From an uncultured Gammaproteobacteria bacterium (GTDB taxonomy: Bacteria > Pseudomonadota > Gammaproteobacteria > JAURND01), in NCBI GenBank assembly GCA_963714975.1, contig CAVQQD010000003.1:160001-224000 (forward strand): DNA of 64,000 nt, written 5' to 3'. Below, one piece after another: positions 2,773 through 51,591 of this stretch (positions are counted from its first letter, which is position 1; every line of letters starts with the position of its first letter). The translations under genes were made by a program, and so were the position numbers. Under the pieces are notes generated by a model. It made no database searches, had not been told where the DNA came from, and saw only the letters and a list, made by a program, of their open reading frames with translations.

Positions 2773-2803
2773 AGCTAGCCGATGCACATAATTCGGTTAG
2801 CAA
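2773..2803. repeat. Degenerate terminal repeat of the AGCTATCCGATGCAC MITE family
   Basis: agctagccgatgcacataattcggttagcaa resembles the reverse complement of 16448-16477 and 17849-17878. Confidence 0.6.
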
Positions 2804-2988
2804 TTCCCGCTGAAACCCTGTTCCCCCGGGGGGGGGCGGGTCCTGCCGCTGCGGCACCCCACCAAAATCCCCCTATCCCCTTTTACAAAGGTGGGCACTT
2901 TCTTCCCCTCCCTTTGTAAAAGGGGATAGGGGGATTTCTGTTGGGGTCCCCGCCCGCCGGTCAAATGACGGAGCAGCGAGAATCACTG
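2798..2988. mobile_element. MITE-like element (CAGCAATTCYCGCTG-end family) with internal CCCCTTT/AAAGGGG hairpin; may also terminate valS
   Basis: Ends tagcaattcccgctgaa / cagcgagaatcactg; internal IR aatccccctatccccttttacaaagg...cctttgtaaaaggggatagggggatt; left half recurs at 18801-18900. Confidence 0.7.
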
Positions 2989-3042
2989 CTTTTTGTGTTG
3001 ATCCAATACCCTCATTTATGCTGCCAATGCTGATGAACGTCA

Positions 3043-3372
3043 TCATTTCCTGATACTATCCAAGGATTCTTTTAAGTGATGTTGAAACATCAGATTAATA
3101 AATTCTTCATCTTTAGAGTAATCCAAATCCTCATTCTCAATAGAGTAAAGATTCTGAAAAATTTTTTGATTATCAAACATAGAGCCAATCCAAGCACAAA
3201 CCAACACGCAAGGCGCGCATATCAACATAACACAAAAAATATTAACCTCTAGGTTGGGAATATTTATCCCATATTTAACTGCAATACCACTTCCCGCAGT
3301 ACCAATTGATCCCCCGATTAAGACTTCCTTATTATTTTTTAAATGATGATTGAAAAAATTTGAACCTGACAT
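3043..3372 (-). CDS. Small membrane hypothetical protein (copy 1)
   Basis: 109 aa with two hydrophobic segments; frame conserved in the paralog at 8981-9310. Confidence 0.6.
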   Translation of the reverse strand: MSGSNFFNHHLKNNKEVLIGGSIGTAGSGIAVKYGINIPNLEVNIFCVMLICAPCVLVCAWIGSMFDNQKIFQNLYSIENEDLDYSKDEEFINLMFQHHLKESLDSIRK

Positions 3373-3387
3373 CTGAATGTTCTCTTA

Positions 3388-3627
3388 TTAAAATTGTGAC
3401 TTGGTCATCGTTTTTGGAAGATCATTGTTTCGATATTCCAATATATCTCCTGGCTGACATTCTAAATAAGCACAAATTGCATCTAAAGTGCTCAACCGGA
3501 TGGCTTTAGCCTTTCCAGTTTTTAAAATAGATAAATTTTGCTCCGTGATGCCAATTGATTCCGCTAATTCTTTGGAACGAATTTTACGTTTAGCCATCAT
3601 TACATCGATGTTAATGATAATTGTCAT
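3388..3627 (-). CDS. Cro/C1-type HTH regulator (YozG-like)
   Basis: ELAESIGITEQNLSILKTGKAKAIRLSTLDAIC...CQPGDIL; usual partner of DUF2975. Confidence 0.9.
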   Translation of the reverse strand: MTIIINIDVMMAKRKIRSKELAESIGITEQNLSILKTGKAKAIRLSTLDAICAYLECQPGDILEYRNNDLPKTMTKSQF

Positions 3628-3634
3628 AGTTGTC

Positions 3635-4189
3635 CTATATCGTCAGTTTTTGTTCTTCCCGTAATCGGCATCCTTCGGCCATAATCCAGGAAATGAGGAT
3701 GATCAAAAACGCTGTGCATATCATTGCAAAATCTGCAGCTGTAAATGATATTACCGATACTCTTAAGCCTAGCCCGGGTGGGTTATGCCACGTTACCACT
3801 GCGGTCATAACCCCTTCCATAATGGGCTTTAATATTTGAGCGATTAGAAGTGCATAACCTGATTTTTTTAAATAGGTAACATTTTGCAAAGAAAAAATTT
3901 CACCCTGACTATAAAGCCGAAATAAACGAATTAAAAAATAGAAGAGAAATTCAATGGCAATAAAGGGAATGGCGCTTATGAGAAAGCCCCCAAGGCAAGT
4001 GATTAAATCTAGATGCAAGACTTGAACATTGGCTGGAATAGCTCGGATAATAAATCCGAAATCTGCGAGCAAAGGGATGGGCGCTGGGGCATGTAACCAA
4101 GCGAGGATATGTAAGATTGGCACACTAATAAATGCCAATATAAATAACCAGTAAAAACAAAGACTAACTTTTTTTATTTTAGGTGACAT
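3635..4189 (-). CDS. DUF2975 family membrane protein
   Basis: Four TM segments, GEIFS..NV..L motif, C-terminal EG..LREEQKLTI; upstream of a YozG-like HTH gene. Confidence 0.85.
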   Translation of the reverse strand: MSPKIKKVSLCFYWLFILAFISVPILHILAWLHAPAPIPLLADFGFIIRAIPANVQVLHLDLITCLGGFLISAIPFIAIEFLFYFLIRLFRLYSQGEIFSLQNVTYLKKSGYALLIAQILKPIMEGVMTAVVTWHNPPGLGLRVSVISFTAADFAMICTAFLIILISWIMAEGCRLREEQKLTI

Positions 4190-4363
4190 AGTGGCTCCAT
4201 GAGTGAAAGATTAATTGAAAGGCTAAAATATAATATAAATTATCGTTAGTCAATAATTATTTAATCTATTATAGCCAATTATTTTCGTTGGTCATTAGCC
4301 GGGTATGCAAATCTTTGATCAATCTTGCATGGATCAATAGTGACAAGCTTGTTCTTCTTAAGC

Positions 4364-8802: not shown

Positions 8803-8949
8803 CAGCAATTCTCGGCGAATCACCGCAGTCCCCGTCGTCCCTGCATGGATGCATGGATGCATGGAACAGGAAAGTTAAGGTTTCGTGCTTCTCATCAGCA
8901 TGGATCCCGCGGACAAGCCGCGGGACGACGTATTCGCCGAGAATTGCTG
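8803..8949. mobile_element. Composite MITE: 18-bp perfect TIRs enclosing a CGTC-type palindromic element (8833-8930)
   Basis: cagcaattctcggcgaat (8803-8820) / attcgccgagaattgctg (8932-8949); inner cgtcgtccc...tggatcccgcggacaagccgcgggacgacg. Confidence 0.8.
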
Positions 8950-8980
8950 GCATTTACGCTGCCAATGCTGATGAACGTCA

Positions 8981-9310
8981 TCATTTCCTGATACTATCTA
9001 AGGATTTTTTTAAATGGTGTTGAAACATCAGATTAATAAATTCTTCATCTTTTGAGTAATCCAAATCCTCATTCTCTATAGAGTAAAAATTCTGAGAAAT
9101 TTTCTGATTATCAAACATAGAACCAATCCAAGCACAAAACAGCACACAAGGCACGCATATCAACATAACACAAAAAATATTAACCTCTAGATTAGGAATA
9201 TTTATCCCATATTTAACTGCAATACCACTTCCCGCAGTACCAATGGTTCCCCCGATTAAGACTCCCTTATTATTTTTTAAATGATGATTGAAAAAATTTG
9301 AACCTGACAT
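8981..9310 (-). CDS. Small membrane hypothetical protein (copy 2)
   Basis: Paralog of 3043-3372. Confidence 0.6.
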   Translation of the reverse strand: MSGSNFFNHHLKNNKGVLIGGTIGTAGSGIAVKYGINIPNLEVNIFCVMLICVPCVLFCAWIGSMFDNQKISQNFYSIENEDLDYSKDEEFINLMFQHHLKKSLDSIRK

Positions 9311-9325
9311 TTAAATGCTCTCTTA

Positions 9326-9565
9326 TTAAAATTGTGACTTGGTCATCGTTTTTGGAAGATCATCATATCGATGTTCCAATATATCTCCTGGCTGACATTC
9401 TAAATAAGCACAAATTGCATCTAAAGTGCTCAACCGGATGGCTTTAGCCTTTCCGGTCTTTAAAATGGATAAATTTTGTTCTGTGATGCCAATTGATTCT
9501 GCCAATTCTTTGGAGCGAATTTTACGTTTAGCCATCATTACATCGATGTTAATGATAATTGTCAT
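9326..9565 (-). CDS. Cro/C1-type HTH regulator (copy 2)
   Basis: Paralog of 3388-3627. Confidence 0.9.
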   Translation of the reverse strand: MTIIINIDVMMAKRKIRSKELAESIGITEQNLSILKTGKAKAIRLSTLDAICAYLECQPGDILEHRYDDLPKTMTKSQF

Positions 9566-9572
9566 AGTTGTC

Positions 9573-10127
9573 CTATATTGTCAGTTTTTGTTCTTCCCGC
9601 AATCGGCACCCTTCGGCCATAATCCAGGAAATGAGGATGATCAAAAACGCTGTGCATATCATTGCAATATCTGCAGCTGTAAATGATATTACCGATACTC
9701 TTAAGCCTAGCCCGGGTGGGTTATGCCACGTTACCACTGTGGTCATAACCCCTTCCATAATGGGCTTTACTATTTGAGCGATTAGAAGTGCATAACCTGA
9801 TTTTTTTAAATAGGTAACATTTTGCAAAGAAAAAATTTCACCCTGACTATAAAGCCGAAATAAACGAATTAAAAAATAGAAGAGAAATTCAATGGCAATA
9901 AAGGGAATGGCGCTTATGAGAAAGCCCCAAAAGCGAGTGATTAAATCTAGGTGCAGCACTTGGACGTTGGCTGGGATAGCTCGGACAATAAACCCAAAAT
10001 CTGCAAGCAAAGGGACTGGCGCCGGAGTGTGTAACCAAGCGATGATATGTAAGATTGGCACGCTAATAAATGCCAATATAAATAACCAGTAAAAACAAAG
10101 ACTAACTTTTTTTATTTTAGGTGACAT
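9573..10127 (-). CDS. DUF2975 family membrane protein (copy 2)
   Basis: Paralog of 3635-4189. Confidence 0.85.
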   Translation of the reverse strand: MSPKIKKVSLCFYWLFILAFISVPILHIIAWLHTPAPVPLLADFGFIVRAIPANVQVLHLDLITRFWGFLISAIPFIAIEFLFYFLIRLFRLYSQGEIFSLQNVTYLKKSGYALLIAQIVKPIMEGVMTTVVTWHNPPGLGLRVSVISFTAADIAMICTAFLIILISWIMAEGCRLREEQKLTI

Positions 10128-10266
10128 AATGGCTCCATGGGTGAAAGATAAGTTGAAGGACTAAAATATAATATAAATTATCGTTAGTCAATAATTATTT
10201 AATCCATTATAACCAATTATTTTTGTGGTGAGCTATTTGATTGAGTTAACCGGCGAGGAATGGAAG

Positions 10267-49885: not shown

Positions 49886-50518
49886 TTACCCTGTCCAACC
49901 AGGGAAAATGTCTTTAAGTCCTCTCGTGATCATGCTCATGGCAATTGAAGCTAGCACGAGCCCCATGATTCGAGTAATGATGTTTATGCCAGTGACACCA
50001 ATTATTTTGCCGATGCGGGTTGAGAAAATCAGGACCACTCCTAAGATGAATGCAATTAATAATACACCGAGAGAAATGTAAATTTTATTAATTATGTCAG
50101 GGAATTCATTGCTAAAGATAATAATGTTGGTCATTGCGCCAGGACCCGCTATAATCGGGATTCCTAATGGGACAATGGCAATAGAATCTTTTACTGGAGT
50201 TTGGTGCAGCTCCTGGGCAGTCTGGGATGTCGGTGTTTGTTTATCATGGAGCATTTGTAAGCCGCGTAATAAGATAATTAGGCCGCCGGTGATTTGAAAC
50301 GCAGGTAAAGAAATACCAAATACTTCCAGAATAGGAATGCCAGTCCAGGTGATGACGAAAAGTACGGTGAAGATGGTCAAGGTCGCAACCAGGGCAATGT
50401 GTCTTCGTTCCACTTCTGTTTTAGTTGCCGTCATCCCTAAGAATACCGCTAGGCTACCGGGCGGATTGGTGATGGCTAACATGGAAATTAAAAAGCTTAA
50501 AAATTGGCTCCAATGCAT
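49886..50518 (-). CDS. MarC family membrane protein
   Basis: [31 protein letters not shown]. Confidence 0.92.
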
Positions 50519-50587
50519 AGAAGTATCACAAAGTAGTAGGGAAGAGCTATATAATGGCTTAAAAATTCAAATTTAGCTATAGTTTTT

Positions 50588-51172
50588 ATGAAAATTTATC
50601 TAGTTAGGCATGGTGATGCAGTGTCCAGTAATCTTAGTCCCCTCCGCCCTTTGAGCGCGATTGGGCAGCAACAGGTACTGGCATTGGCAGAACACTTACG
50701 GCAAAAACAAGCAGCAATTGCGACGATATTTCACAGTGGCATTTTGCGAGCGCAACAAACAGCCGAGCTATTGGCACGGACTTTGGATGTTGCTGCTGTG
50801 GAAAAATTACCGGGTTTAGAGCCAGAGGATGCGGTGGAAATCCTGCTAGCCTTCCTCGATACTTGGTCAGAGCCGGTCTTGCTGGTGGGCCACTTACCCT
50901 ATTTGCCCCAACTAATTGCTACTTTGACTGGCGATTTGATCCAGTTAGAGACTGCGGGCTGTGCTTGTCTGCACAAAAAGGCAGCAATTCCCGCTGAAGA
51001 CTTGCGGGAATTGCTTTCTGATAATAATGCTGCGCAAAAACCAAGTTTTTGCTTGCAGTCAGGGGGAAGAATCCCGATTCTCCCCCCTGACAACCCCTCA
51101 TCGGGTTGTTCAGAGGGAACCGCTGACAAAAAGGTAAATACTCAATGGCAACTTGCTTGGATCTATCCTTAA
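50588..51172 (+). CDS. sixA: Phosphohistidine phosphatase SixA with a 51-codon in-frame insertion
   Basis: YLVRHGDA, RPLS..G, S...RAQQTA, LVGHLP, C-terminal W.L.W..P. Confidence 0.9.
   Translation: MKIYLVRHGDAVSSNLSPLRPLSAIGQQQVLALAEHLRQKQAAIATIFHSGILRAQQTAELLARTLDVAAVEKLPGLEPEDAVEILLAFLDTWSEPVLLVGHLPYLPQLIATLTGDLIQLETAGCACLHKKAAIPAEDLRELLSDNNAAQKPSFCLQSGGRIPILPPDNPSSGCSEGTADKKVNTQWQLAWIYP
50982..51125. mobile_element. 144-bp MITE inside sixA with 17-bp imperfect TIRs and a 9-bp target duplication
   Basis: cagcaattcccgctgaa / ttcagagggaaccgctg (14/17); acaaaaagg at 50973-50981 and 51126-51134. Confidence 0.85.
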
Positions 51173-51591
51173 ATAGCCTATCTGCCGTTTTAATTGGGCC
51201 ATCGCGTGCTTTTGCCGTGTTATTGTGGGGAATGTATTTGGGTGCAAGTCTTTGCCTAGGCTTATCGCAAATTGCTGTAGCATGGCAAGTGGTAGGATGG
51301 ATTGTTCTCAGTTTGGCTTTTTATCGTTATTTGTGTCGATACGCCTTATGTAGAAGTCCTTATTCTGTTGTGGGGATTCGTGCTGATGAGCATAAGCAAT
51401 GGTGGCTGCACACCACGCTAGGCCAGTGCGTTGCAGCGCGCTTGTTGGGAGATAGTTTTCTTTGTCGCTATTTTCTGGTACTGAATTTCAAATGTCATCG
51501 AAAATGGGGTATTGTTTCGGTAGTGCTATTTAAAGATGCCGTTGCTCCTCAGGCATTCCGACGATTGAAAGGCTATTTATCAACACTCTGA
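51145..51591 (+). CDS. YgfX/CptA-like membrane protein
   Basis: PSR + two TM segments + L.F......D......FRRL. Confidence 0.65.

What the first reader, a model, noticed from the sequence alone, without database searches (positions are those of the whole stretch)
50973..51134. Complete MITE with a 9-bp target duplication inserted in frame in sixA
Seen: 144 bp with TIRs cagcaattcccgctgaa / ttcagagggaaccgctg (14/17) are flanked by direct repeats of acaaaaagg. Element plus duplication is 153 bp, or 51 codons, with no stop. Precise removal gives ...[18 protein letters not shown], a normal 143-aa SixA. The interior is a row of hairpins. The same end sequence occurs at 2798, 8803 and 18801. Inference: this is a second protein-invading family, mobilised by a DDE transposase that makes 9-bp duplications. 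No such transposase was identified in the window.
Basis: partly seen in the sequence, partly recalled or inferred. Interest (0 to 1): 0.8.

Follow-up and report, generated by a model that had tools for sequence, protein, structure and literature searches.

The report
Small transposon translated inside sixA
A 144-base non-coding jumping element has landed in frame inside the gene for the SixA phosphatase and is read as a 51-residue extra loop, a tidy new case of a phenomenon already known from Rickettsia and other bacteria.

Summary
Window 50982-51125 is a 144-bp element with 14/17 terminal inverted repeats. It is flanked by a perfect 9-bp duplication (ACAAAAAGG) and reads in frame, without a stop, inside sixA.

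- None of 11 SixA orthologs has the segment. Precise removal restores a 7-residue turn like theirs.
- The element is a shortened copy of a MITE family. Relatives 217-245 bp long in a sister genus show a perfect 9-bp duplication in 6 of 10 copies.
- The left end occurs exactly 19 times in this genome, mostly on a separate ~135-bp family. That family is also translated inside TilS, RsmB, LptD and others.
- I found the likely mobiliser: a 1617-bp IS with the same ends, a perfect 9-bp duplication and a 433-aa DDE transposase, in a related MAG. This genome holds only a decayed copy, 45 kb (44,964 bases) before the window's first base.
- An ISAs1 partner was tested and rejected.
- The interior is a three-hairpin core kept by compensatory changes across many Legionellales-like MAGs. 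A second MITE family with other ends and 8-bp duplications shares it.

Earlier notes of this scan reported in-frame palindromic repeats elsewhere in this genome. Verdict: a real MITE, a new member of a known kind, of moderate interest.

The parts
50588..51172 (+). sixA ORF, 194 aa including the translated insert (phosphohistidine phosphatase SixA)
   Evidence: ORF. TIGR00249 sixA scores 82.8 bits against a cut-off of 74.5. E. coli SixA 1UJB aligns at E 2.6e-9. All 18 invariant columns of the 12-sequence alignment are kept, including W187 after the insert.
50973..50981 (+). left copy of the 9-bp target-site duplication, ACAAAAAGG
   Evidence: family D4, 100% identical copies 153 bp apart
50982..51125 (+). 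144-bp MITE copy, a tail-less derivative, translated as residues 132-182 together with the second duplication copy
   Evidence: It aligns over positions 1-122 to elements in G006 (77%) and over 1-120 in G007 (72-74%). It is absent from 11 of 11 orthologs.
50982..50998 (+). left terminal inverted repeat, CAGCAATTCCCGCTGAA
   Evidence: The exact 15-mer occurs 19 times in G000, 34 times in G007, 4 times in G005 and 2 times in G009; the reversed control gives 0.
50983..51015 (+). hairpin 1: the left end folded back on an adjacent complementary copy (12-bp stem, 9-nt loop)
   Evidence: I2. The same arrangement is seen in the G006, G005 and G011 copies and in many MAG copies.
51034..51052 (+). hairpin 2, whose stem is kept by compensatory changes across genomes
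   Evidence: I5. In one search, helix 2 has changes on both sides in 8 of 8 pairs and 90.3% of cells paired.
51058..51091 (+). hairpin 3, a near-invariant purine/pyrimidine palindrome (GGGGGAAGAATC.CGATTCTCCCCCC)
   Evidence: I1. The pattern is found in at least 123 loci of genome contigs. In one search, helix 3 is 95.5% paired.
51101..51105 (+). tail motif TCGGG, complementary to the loop of hairpin 3 (51073-51077); the centre base co-varies
   Evidence: helix 4: pair 88-120 shows GC 37, CG 3, AU 2 and other 4. Coordinates were worked out from alignment A2.
51109..51125 (+). right terminal inverted repeat (degenerate), TTCAGAGGGAACCGCTG
   Evidence: 14 of 17 complementary to the left end. The variant CAGCGGTTCCC.. 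also ends the IS copy on a Legionella israelensis plasmid and the second G000 copy at C3:302367.
51126..51134 (+). right copy of the 9-bp target-site duplication, ACAAAAAGG
   Evidence: family D4
2798..2988 (+). another element of this genome with the same ends (191 bp, main-family type), intergenic
   Evidence: C3:162798-162988.
8803..8949 (+). 147-bp pair of ends with 3 mismatches each to the 15-mer
   Evidence: C3:168803-168949; its body was not studied further.

Best explanation
The segment is a non-autonomous DNA transposon (a MITE) of a family whose ends read CAGC(A/G)(A/G)TTCCC(G/T)CTG.

Shown:
- It sits in the codons for the turn between the last two beta-strands of SixA and is flanked by a 9-bp target duplication.
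- Element plus duplication make 51 codons, and this copy has no stop in 4 of 6 frames, so the frame runs on and the element reads as a 51-residue loop.
- The fold prediction gives that loop low confidence and leaves the SixA core confident.

Inferred:
- The family is moved in trans by a DDE transposase of a large, unnamed branch of the IS4/IS5 superfamily. That enzyme is carried on IS elements of about 1.6 kb with the same ends and 9-bp duplications.
- This genome holds only a broken copy of that transposase, so the sixA copy is probably frozen in place.
- The copy survives because it is in frame, free of stops and lies in a surface turn.

Open:
- Whether SixA still works, and whether the insert is kept in the mRNA and the protein, was not tested.
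- The interior is not random filler. It is a three-hairpin core kept by compensatory substitutions across many related genomes, so it is under selection as a folded single strand (RNA or DNA). Its role is unknown.
For: Anatomy:
- 144 bp, ends 14/17 complementary, perfect 9-bp duplication, 153 bp in frame.

It is an insertion:
- 0 of 11 orthologs have the segment. 10 of 11 have 6-7 residues between the conserved CL and W, and precise removal gives 7 here.
- A DNA search of 41 genomes finds no match in G003, the one ortholog with a longer loop.

It belongs to a family:
- Positions 1-120/122 align to elements in G006, G007 and G005.
- Of 10 full-length G007 copies, 6 have 9/9 flanking repeats and 1 has 8/9.
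- The G006 copy has 7/9 (read).
- In G000, 4 of 18 end-pairs have 7/9 or better, against 1 of 306 controls.

Partner transposase:
- L451 (G041) is 1617 bp with ends CAGCAATTCCCGCT / CAGCGATTCCCGCT, a perfect duplication TAAAATTAT and a 433-aa ORF.
- PF01609 scores 21.8 bits in hmmscan and 23.3 bits in the genome search.
- In G000, C3:113380-115037 matches it at 34% over 289 aa (E 4e-39), is broken into pieces, and has flanks matching 8/9.
- A copy on a Legionella israelensis plasmid is 48.7% identical and has CAGCGGTTCCCGGCG-type ends.
- 14 of 34 metagenome relatives show CAGC.ATTCCCG inverted repeats at both ends in an unbiased repeat search.

Tolerance by the protein:
- pLDDT is above 90 over most of residues 1-130 (block means 83-98) and over 186-194. 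It is low for 132-182, which lies between strands 125-130 and 187-193.

Core structure:
- 91.6% of cells are paired against 41-49% when partners are slid.
- 140 cells show changes on both sides, against 46 in shuffles.
Against: - The right end is only 14/17, and the body has just one other copy plus a truncated paralog copy in this genome. The copy is old or derived, yet its duplication is perfect.
- No same-species genome or read set with an empty site was available.
- The transposase is sub-threshold for PF01609 in hmmscan (21.8 against 23) and matches no NCBIfam model.
- Duplications are missing at the L. israelensis copy (3/9) and at 3 of 3 metagenome copies checked by eye. Those contigs may join flanks of different copies.
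- The partner IS does not carry the hairpin core (0 of 36), so the MITE is not a simple internal deletion of it.
- An open frame is weak evidence for a working protein, because 4 of 6 frames of this copy are open.
Confidence: 0.82

Rival explanations
1. The ends belong to an ISAs1-family insertion sequence. ISAs1 ends begin with CAG and make 8-10-bp duplications (a family trait recalled, not taken from a call), so ISAs1 would be the mobiliser.
For: In G007, contig C53, the end CAGCAATTCCCGCTGAAAAACAC runs directly into a decayed ISAs1-type transposase gene (PF13808, 27.9 bits).
Against: - ISAs1 copies in 4 MITE-rich MAGs have other ends (CATGGCAA.CGCATTGAA) and 10-bp duplications.
- None of 12 ISAs1 loci there has the MITE end next to it.
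- G002 and G001 ISAs1 copies also lack it.
- G000 has no ISAs1 homolog.
- The C53 junction is better read as a MITE fragment lying in a dead ISAs1 copy.
Confidence: 0.04
2. It is a REP/REPIN-like or IS200/IS605-type hairpin element moved as single-stranded DNA by a tyrosine (Y1) transposase, not by a DDE enzyme.
For: - The element is a row of hairpins whose structure is conserved.
- The genome is rich in TnpB genes.
- Earlier notes of this scan describe REP-like families in this genome.
Against: - Flanking 9-bp duplications and true terminal inverted repeats are found repeatedly. That such elements make neither is a recalled family trait.
- A DDE-type gene bounded by the same ends exists.
- RAYT genes were not searched for.
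Confidence: 0.04
3. The insertion has killed sixA. The open frame is a by-product of a stop-poor element, and the gene is a young pseudogene rather than a SixA with an extra loop.
For: - 4 of 6 frames of the element are open, which 0 of 300 shuffles reach, so openness in the sixA frame needs no selection.
- SixA is dispensable in E. coli (recalled).
- The perfect duplication fits a recent event.
Against: - All 18 invariant alignment columns are intact, including W187 downstream of the insert.
- The model keeps the core fold and the last strand.
- Same-end elements sit in frame in genes such as TilS, RsmB and LptD; that some of these are essential is recalled. Translation through such inserts is therefore tolerated in this organism.
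Confidence: 0.25
4. It is a lineage-specific loop of SixA that arose by ordinary sequence evolution, with chance repeats at its borders.
For: One ortholog (G003) has a loop about 10 residues longer than the others.
Against: - The DNA aligns over 120 bases to intergenic repeats in other genera.
- The left end is an exact 15-mer present 19 times here against 0 in the reversed control.
- The 9-bp repeat is perfect.
Confidence: 0.01

Closest known systems
Rickettsia palindromic elements (RPEs; Ogata et al. 2000, 2002, as summarised in the review PMC10969869, passages read)
   Same: - Short (~150 bp) hairpin-forming repeats inserted in frame into unrelated housekeeping genes and read as extra peptide segments.
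- They are thought to be tolerated because they land in surface loops.
- Several families occur in one genome.
   Different: - Different phylum-level lineage: a Legionellales/Coxiellales-like gammaproteobacterium.
- Clear terminal inverted repeats, a 9-bp target duplication and an identifiable DDE transposase partner.
- Sequence relatedness to RPEs could not be tested, because no RPE sequence was on hand.
QMITE2 of Coxiella burnetii (Wachter et al. 2018, PMC5896051; abstract and sections 8 and 10 read)
   Same: - 150-190 bp, terminal inverted repeats, variable direct repeats of 7-11 nt and a strongly folded core.
- QMITE2 is a hot spot for an IS110-family element (IS1111). Here too, an IS110-family element sits inside the MITE end in 3 copies.
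   Different: - QMITE2 is reported mainly in intergenic and 3' regions, overlapping gene ends by 1-10 bp, not in frame inside proteins.
- No partner transposase is named in the parts I read.
- Homology was not testable here, because no QMITE2 sequence is printed in those parts.
Intragenic ERIC, BOX and QMITE1 elements, and cyanobacterial MITEs such as Nezha (listed in PMC10969869; Nezha abstract recalled)
   Same: - Bacterial MITEs that fold stably, insert into or overlap ORFs, and are moved in trans by an IS-encoded transposase.
- Distant plasmid relatives of the partner transposase lie in Nostoc, Anabaena and Calothrix, and some are annotated 'ISNCY family transposase'.
   Different: - Different ends and duplication lengths.
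- None is reported with the hairpin core described here.
- A link to the Nezha partner was not tested.
IS10/IS50 (IS4 family) and IS903 (IS5 family), classical DDE elements with 9-bp duplications (recalled)
   Same: - A DDE transposase of the PF01609 kind.
- 9-bp staggered cuts.
- Short terminal inverted repeats.
   Different: - The partner is only borderline for PF01609 (21.8-23.3 bits) and matches no NCBIfam model.
- Its ends begin with CAGC, unlike those of these classical elements.

Membership tests
MITE (miniature inverted-repeat transposable element) | Small and non-coding, with no transposase gene | tested here: met
   144 bp; relatives are 181-245 bp.
MITE | Terminal inverted repeats | tested here: met
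   14/17 in this copy. The G007 copies have near-perfect ends, CAGCAATTCCCGC...GCGGGAATTGCTG.
MITE | Target-site duplication of fixed length | tested here: met
   9/9 here; 6 of 10 perfect in G007; 4 of 18 at 7/9 or better in G000 against 1 of 306 controls.
MITE | Repeated copies dispersed in genomes | tested here: met
   This body type has 1 further copy plus 1 truncated copy in G000, at least 21 matches in G007, and 199 end motifs in G041.
MITE | An autonomous element with the same ends that can supply the transposase | tested here: met
   L451 in G041 is 1617 bp with the same ends, a perfect 9-bp duplication and a 433-aa DDE-type ORF. There is a decayed copy in G000. Activity itself was not tested.
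Rickettsia palindromic elements (RPE) | In-frame insertion of a palindromic repeat in protein-coding genes | tested here: met
   sixA, and same-end elements inside TilS, RsmB, an amylase-family protein and a LysM-M23 peptidase with Pfam domains on both sides.
Rickettsia palindromic elements (RPE) | Sequence homology to one of the described RPE families | not testable with these tools
   No RPE sequence was available from a tool. I therefore say it works like an RPE and do not file it as one.
REP/REPIN with RAYT | Insertion without target duplication, and mobilisation by a Y1 transposase | tested here: not met
   9-bp duplications are the rule. RAYT genes were not searched for.
ISAs1-derived element | Same ends as an ISAs1-family IS | tested here: not met
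   ISAs1 copies in G041-G044 end in CATGGCAA.CGCATTGAA and make 10-bp duplications.
IS4/IS5 superfamily (Pfam DDE_Tnp_1, PF01609), for the partner transposase | Score at or above the curated cut-off of 23 bits | tested here: inconclusive
   21.8 bits in hmmscan and 23.3 bits in the six-frame genome search. PF01609 is precomputed for 21 of the 120 listed relatives. No NCBIfam model matches.
SixA phosphohistidine phosphatase (TIGR00249), for the host gene | Equivalog model above its cut-off, with the conserved RHG histidine | tested here: met
   82.8 bits against 74.5. H8 and the other 17 invariant columns are kept. The fold model is confident outside the insert.
Rfam RNA families, for the hairpin core | Match at the gathering score | tested here: not met
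   No family reaches its gathering score on the sixA copy or over the hairpin core of six other copies; the only match above gathering there is an SRP RNA gene beside the element in L315.

The most novel reading that the evidence does not exclude
The roughly 75-nt interior consists of hairpin 2, the near-invariant palindromic hairpin 3 and a tail that co-varies with the hairpin-3 loop. On this reading it is a functional folded module in its own right, not transposon filler.

- It is absent from the transposase-bearing IS (0 of 36).
- At least two transposon systems carry it, with unrelated ends and different duplication lengths: CAGC-type with 9 bp, and GTA(A/T)CTATTCAGCA-type with 8 bp.
- It is kept by compensatory changes in MAGs labelled Berkiellales, Coxiellaceae and Legionellaceae.

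It could be an undescribed structured RNA or a folded-DNA or protein-binding site that spreads by hitch-hiking on MITEs. In sixA such a module would be embedded in a coding sequence.
Probability: 0.3. Interest if true: 0.6.

Novelty: new member of a known kind. Interest (0 to 1): 0.4.

Why it matters
The case has every transposon hallmark in one place: ends, a perfect duplication, a reconstructible empty site and a candidate transposase. That makes it one of the cleaner examples of selfish DNA becoming part of a protein, outside the Rickettsia cases where this was first described.

It also names a previously unlabelled, very large transposase clade (at least 8000 relatives) as the likely mobiliser. 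It further shows that the element's interior is a conserved folded module shared between transposon families, which is a testable lead.

None of this changes the general picture. In-frame MITEs are described as 'not unusual' in the 2024 review (PMC10969869), and this scan had already noted in-frame repeats elsewhere in this genome.

Tried and rejected
- ISAs1 as partner: rejected.
- Pairs of ends 1.4-5 kb apart were each two separate MITEs or fragments around ordinary genes (LolB-like/DedA, MsrB/methyltransferase/ComF-like, MTHFR, glycosyltransferase). These were in G007 (L238), G043 (L412) and G042 (L413, L414).
- A 412-aa DDE IS in G041 lies between MITE ends (L419, L423). It has its own ends (TCACTAGTGTCCGGTT) and 7-bp duplications, and occurs alone elsewhere (L427, L431). 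It is nested in a MITE and is not the partner.
- A 365-aa DDE element abutting a MITE end in G043 (L445/L446) was left unresolved.
- Rfam: nothing at gathering score over the element itself; the one match above gathering is an unrelated SRP RNA gene in L315.
- The exact 20-mer of the main-family end in genome contigs gave 4 single hits in unrelated MAGs, taken as chance.
- Public runs: no RNA holder is listed. Two soil-metagenome contig sets cover only 50400-50615 and 51390-51536, nothing over the insert, so they say nothing about an empty site.
- Close relatives: the search for related loci with SixA gave only relatives at 47% identity or less. The window's genus has no other genome among those searched.
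- Paper searches for three motif strings found only unrelated primers. The search 'miniature inverted-repeat' + Legionella + in-frame found only the QMITE paper as relevant.
- Duplications at 3 metagenome IS copies (L485, L481, L468): none.
- My repeat-finding script picked a chance repeat for the two known positives (L451, L457), so its count of 14 of 34 is a lower bound. 20 of the 54 metagenome loci were left out beforehand as truncated.
- Supplements of the QMITE paper were not opened. They may hold QMITE sequences that would allow a homology test.

Full report
**What is there**

The + strand ORF 50588..51172 encodes 194 aa. It is SixA:
- TIGR00249 scores 82.8 bits against a cut-off of 74.5.
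- E. coli SixA (1UJB) aligns over residues 1-114.

Inside it, the 9-mer ACAAAAAGG occurs at 50973-50981 and again at 51126-51134, 153 bp apart. The 144 bp between the two copies (50982-51125) begin with CAGCAATTCCCGCTGAA and end with TTCAGAGGGAACCGCTG, which are complementary at 14 of 17 positions. They hold three local hairpins (I2, I5, I1). Element plus one repeat copy make 51 codons with no stop in the sixA frame.

**It is an insertion**

The window lies in a 2.56-Mb, 3-contig genome (G000) with 42-45% G+C per contig. It is the only member of its genus among the genomes held. Its LepA is at best 80% identical to MAGs labelled Coxiellaceae. I did not establish the organism's name.

SixA orthologs were recovered from 11 related genomes and aligned.
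- None has the 51-residue segment.
- 10 of 11 have 6-7 residues between the conserved Cys-Leu and the conserved Trp of the last strand. One (G003) has about 10 more.
- Removing the element and one repeat copy leaves 7 residues here.
- A DNA search with the element found nothing in G003.
- All 18 invariant columns of the alignment are intact in the window's protein, including W187 beyond the insert.

An AlphaFold model built on that alignment behaves as follows.
- Residues 1-130 and 186-194 are mostly above pLDDT 90 (block means 83-98 for 1-130).
- Strands fall at 125-130 and 187-193.
- The insert (132-182) has low confidence: one weak helix at 136-147 and the rest below 50.

The element thus replaces the turn of the C-terminal beta-hairpin.

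**It is a mobile element of a family that makes 9-bp duplications**

Within G000 the body of the element has only one more copy and one truncated copy.
- C3:302261-302367 is 86% identical over positions 41-144. It lies in frame in a PF09820 ATPase-like ORF.
- C3:550650-550701 is a truncated copy in a paralog of that gene.

The first 15 bases occur exactly 19 times in G000, 34 times in G007, 4 times in G005 and 2 times in G009. They are absent from the other 37 genomes searched, and the reversed control gives 0 everywhere.

Positions 1-120/122 of the element align to repeats in three genomes of the same family:
- G006 at 77%;
- G007 at 72-74%, with at least 21 matches;
- G005.

Ten full-length G007 copies (217-245 bp) end in CAGCAATTCCCGC...GCGGGAATTGCTG. 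Six have a perfect 9-bp flanking repeat, one has 8/9 and three have 5/9 or fewer. The G006 copy has 7/9 (read).

In G000 most ends belong to a different, G+C-rich family of about 135 bp, with some 59 merged copies and fragments. Of 18 end-pairs 100-260 bp apart, 4 have flanks matching at 7/9 or better (the sixA copy 9/9, then 8/9, 7/9 and 7/9). Only 1 of 306 mismatched left-right flank pairs reaches that level.

**The mobiliser**

G000 carries many IS elements, none with these ends:
- two PF01609-type families;
- three TnpB families;
- two IS110-type families.

A first lead was ISAs1. In G007 an end runs straight into a decayed ISAs1 gene. It failed: ISAs1 copies in four MITE-rich MAGs end in CATGGCAA.CGCATTGAA and make 10-bp duplications.

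Scanning PF01609 hits in those MAGs for nearby ends gave L451 in G041, a genome with 199 end motifs. L451 has these features:
- a 1617-bp element;
- ends CAGCAATTCCCGCT and CAGCGATTCCCGCT;
- a perfect duplication, TAAAATTAT;
- one 433-aa ORF.

The protein is borderline for PF01609 (21.8 bits, 23.3 bits) and matches no NCBIfam model. It has at least 8000 relatives of about 430 aa, named at most 'transposase'.

Three further lines tie this protein clade to these ends.
- A 48.7%-identical copy on a Legionella israelensis plasmid is bounded by CAGCGGTTCCCGGCG-type ends, close to the sixA copy's right end. It has no duplication (3/9).
- 14 of 34 metagenome relatives show CAGC.ATTCCCG inverted repeats on both sides in a search that did not assume the motif. 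20 of the 54 loci were left out as truncated, and the script missed both known positives.
- G000 itself has a homolog at C3:113821-114624 (34% over 289 aa, E 4e-39). It is broken into at least four ORF pieces. It lies inside a unit, C3:113380-115037, that starts with CAGCAATTCCCGGTG, ends with a main-family element, and has flanks CTCTTTGCT / CTTTTTGCT (8/9).

Against this, 3 of 3 metagenome copies checked by eye show no duplication. That the enzyme actually moves the MITE is inferred, not shown.

**Translated copies elsewhere in the genome**

12 of 59 merged copies with these ends are spanned by an open frame of 150 aa or more.

Pfam places domains on both sides of the element in four proteins:
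- TilS, element at residues 246-290;
- RsmB, 207-252;
- an alpha-amylase-family protein, 128-170;
- a LysM-M23 peptidase, 118-139.

It places domains on one side only in two:
- a TsaB-like protein;
- LptD.

Two more copies lie upstream of the first domain and may be outside the true coding sequence.

The sixA copy is open in 4 of 6 frames, which 0 of 300 shuffles reach. Its intergenic relatives in G006 and G007 are open in 0 and 1 frames, because they keep an A+T-rich tail that the sixA copy lacks. I read this as a filter, which is an inference: only short, stop-free, in-frame derivatives persist inside genes. The same figure means that the open frame is weak evidence that SixA still works.

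Earlier notes of this scan on other parts of this genome had reported in-frame palindromic repeats in about ten housekeeping genes, likening them to RPEs. My census agrees and adds ends, duplications and a partner.

**The interior**

The MAGs that hold it are labelled Berkiellales, Coxiellaceae, Coxiella sp., Legionellaceae, Legionellales and 'uncultured proteobacterium'. 74 of the 80 listed loci also have the downstream CCCCCATCGCG-like tail.

On 46 copies differing by at least 10%, a structure that I wrote by eye gave the following:
- 91.6% of cells are paired, against 41-49% with partners slid by 1-3 columns;
- 140 cells show changes on both sides, against 46 in shuffles;
- all 8 pairs of hairpin 2 vary on both sides; one pair reads GC 15, CG 12, AU 10 and UA 4;
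- the centre base of hairpin 3 co-varies with a base in the tail (GC 37, CG 3, AU 2, other 4).

The structure was derived from these same sequences and the copies are related, so these figures overstate the case. The direction is still clear.

The core is absent from all 36 transposase-bearing elements examined. In G011, a genome of another family, and in two other MAGs it is carried between unrelated ends, GTA(A/T)CTATTCAGCA. There the duplications are 8 bp: of 16 copies, 3 match at 8/8 and 4 at 7/8. No Rfam family matches it. The core therefore looks like a module under selection of its own that rides on at least two transposon systems. What it does is unknown.

**Comparison and verdict**

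The closest known things are RPEs (same outcome in proteins) and QMITE2 of Coxiella burnetii. QMITE2 has a similar size, 7-11-nt repeats, a folded core and an IS110-family element that targets it (PMC5896051, abstract and sections 8 and 10). Here an IS110-type element sits inside the MITE end at three places.

The 2024 review says in-frame fusions by intragenic MITEs are 'not unusual' (PMC10969869, passages). I found no paper with these motifs.

This is a real feature, correctly read by the first stage. It is a new member of a known kind, and its two added points of interest are the identified partner clade and the conserved core.

Noticed in passing
G000 C3:459650-461008, C3:520414-521778, C2:68575-69895 (outside the window): A 1.3-kb IS110-family element (PF01548 + PF02371) is inserted inside the MITE end, between CAGCAATT and CCCGCTG, at three places. 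This recalls IS1111 targeting QMITE2 in Coxiella.
   Followed up: partly
G011 loci L247-L276; also L292, L295, L302, L308 and others: A second MITE family has ends GTA(A/T)CTATTCAGCA and 8-bp duplications. It has at least 61 matches in G011 and carries the same hairpin-2/hairpin-3 core as the sixA element.
   Followed up: partly
G041 loci L419 (763-2362) and L423 (1137-2741): A MITE with a 1.4-kb IS nested in its tail occurs at two sites. The nested IS sits at the same internal site in opposite orientations. Each composite is flanked by a different perfect 9-bp duplication, so the 1.6-kb composite seems to have moved as a unit.
   Followed up: partly
G000 C3:685098-685229 and C3:685535-685672: Two main-family copies whose 25-bp flanks are exact reverse complements of each other, so each sits at the centre of a larger palindrome.
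   Followed up: no
window 3013-4292 and 8951-10229: A 1280-bp repeat (two copies) lies directly beside two elements with the MITE ends (C3:163013-164292 and 168951-170229). Its content was not examined.
   Followed up: no
G000 C2:1006774-1006807 and about 30 other places: A separate 34-bp repeat with many near-identical copies flanks one main-family MITE. It is another short repeat family in a very repeat-rich genome.
   Followed up: no
window 51145-51591: A 148-aa ORF that looks hydrophobic (by eye) starts 28 bp before the sixA stop and runs up to lepA. It was not characterised.
   Followed up: no
window 51058-51091 and all core copies: The invariant centre of hairpin 3, GAGAATCGCGATTCTC, is a perfect palindrome containing two GANTC motifs. 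It may be a site for a dimeric protein or a methylase. This is an idea only.
   Followed up: no
L315 402-498: An SRP RNA gene (RF00169, 59.9 bits) lies about 100 bases from a MITE copy in one MAG. It is incidental.
   Followed up: no
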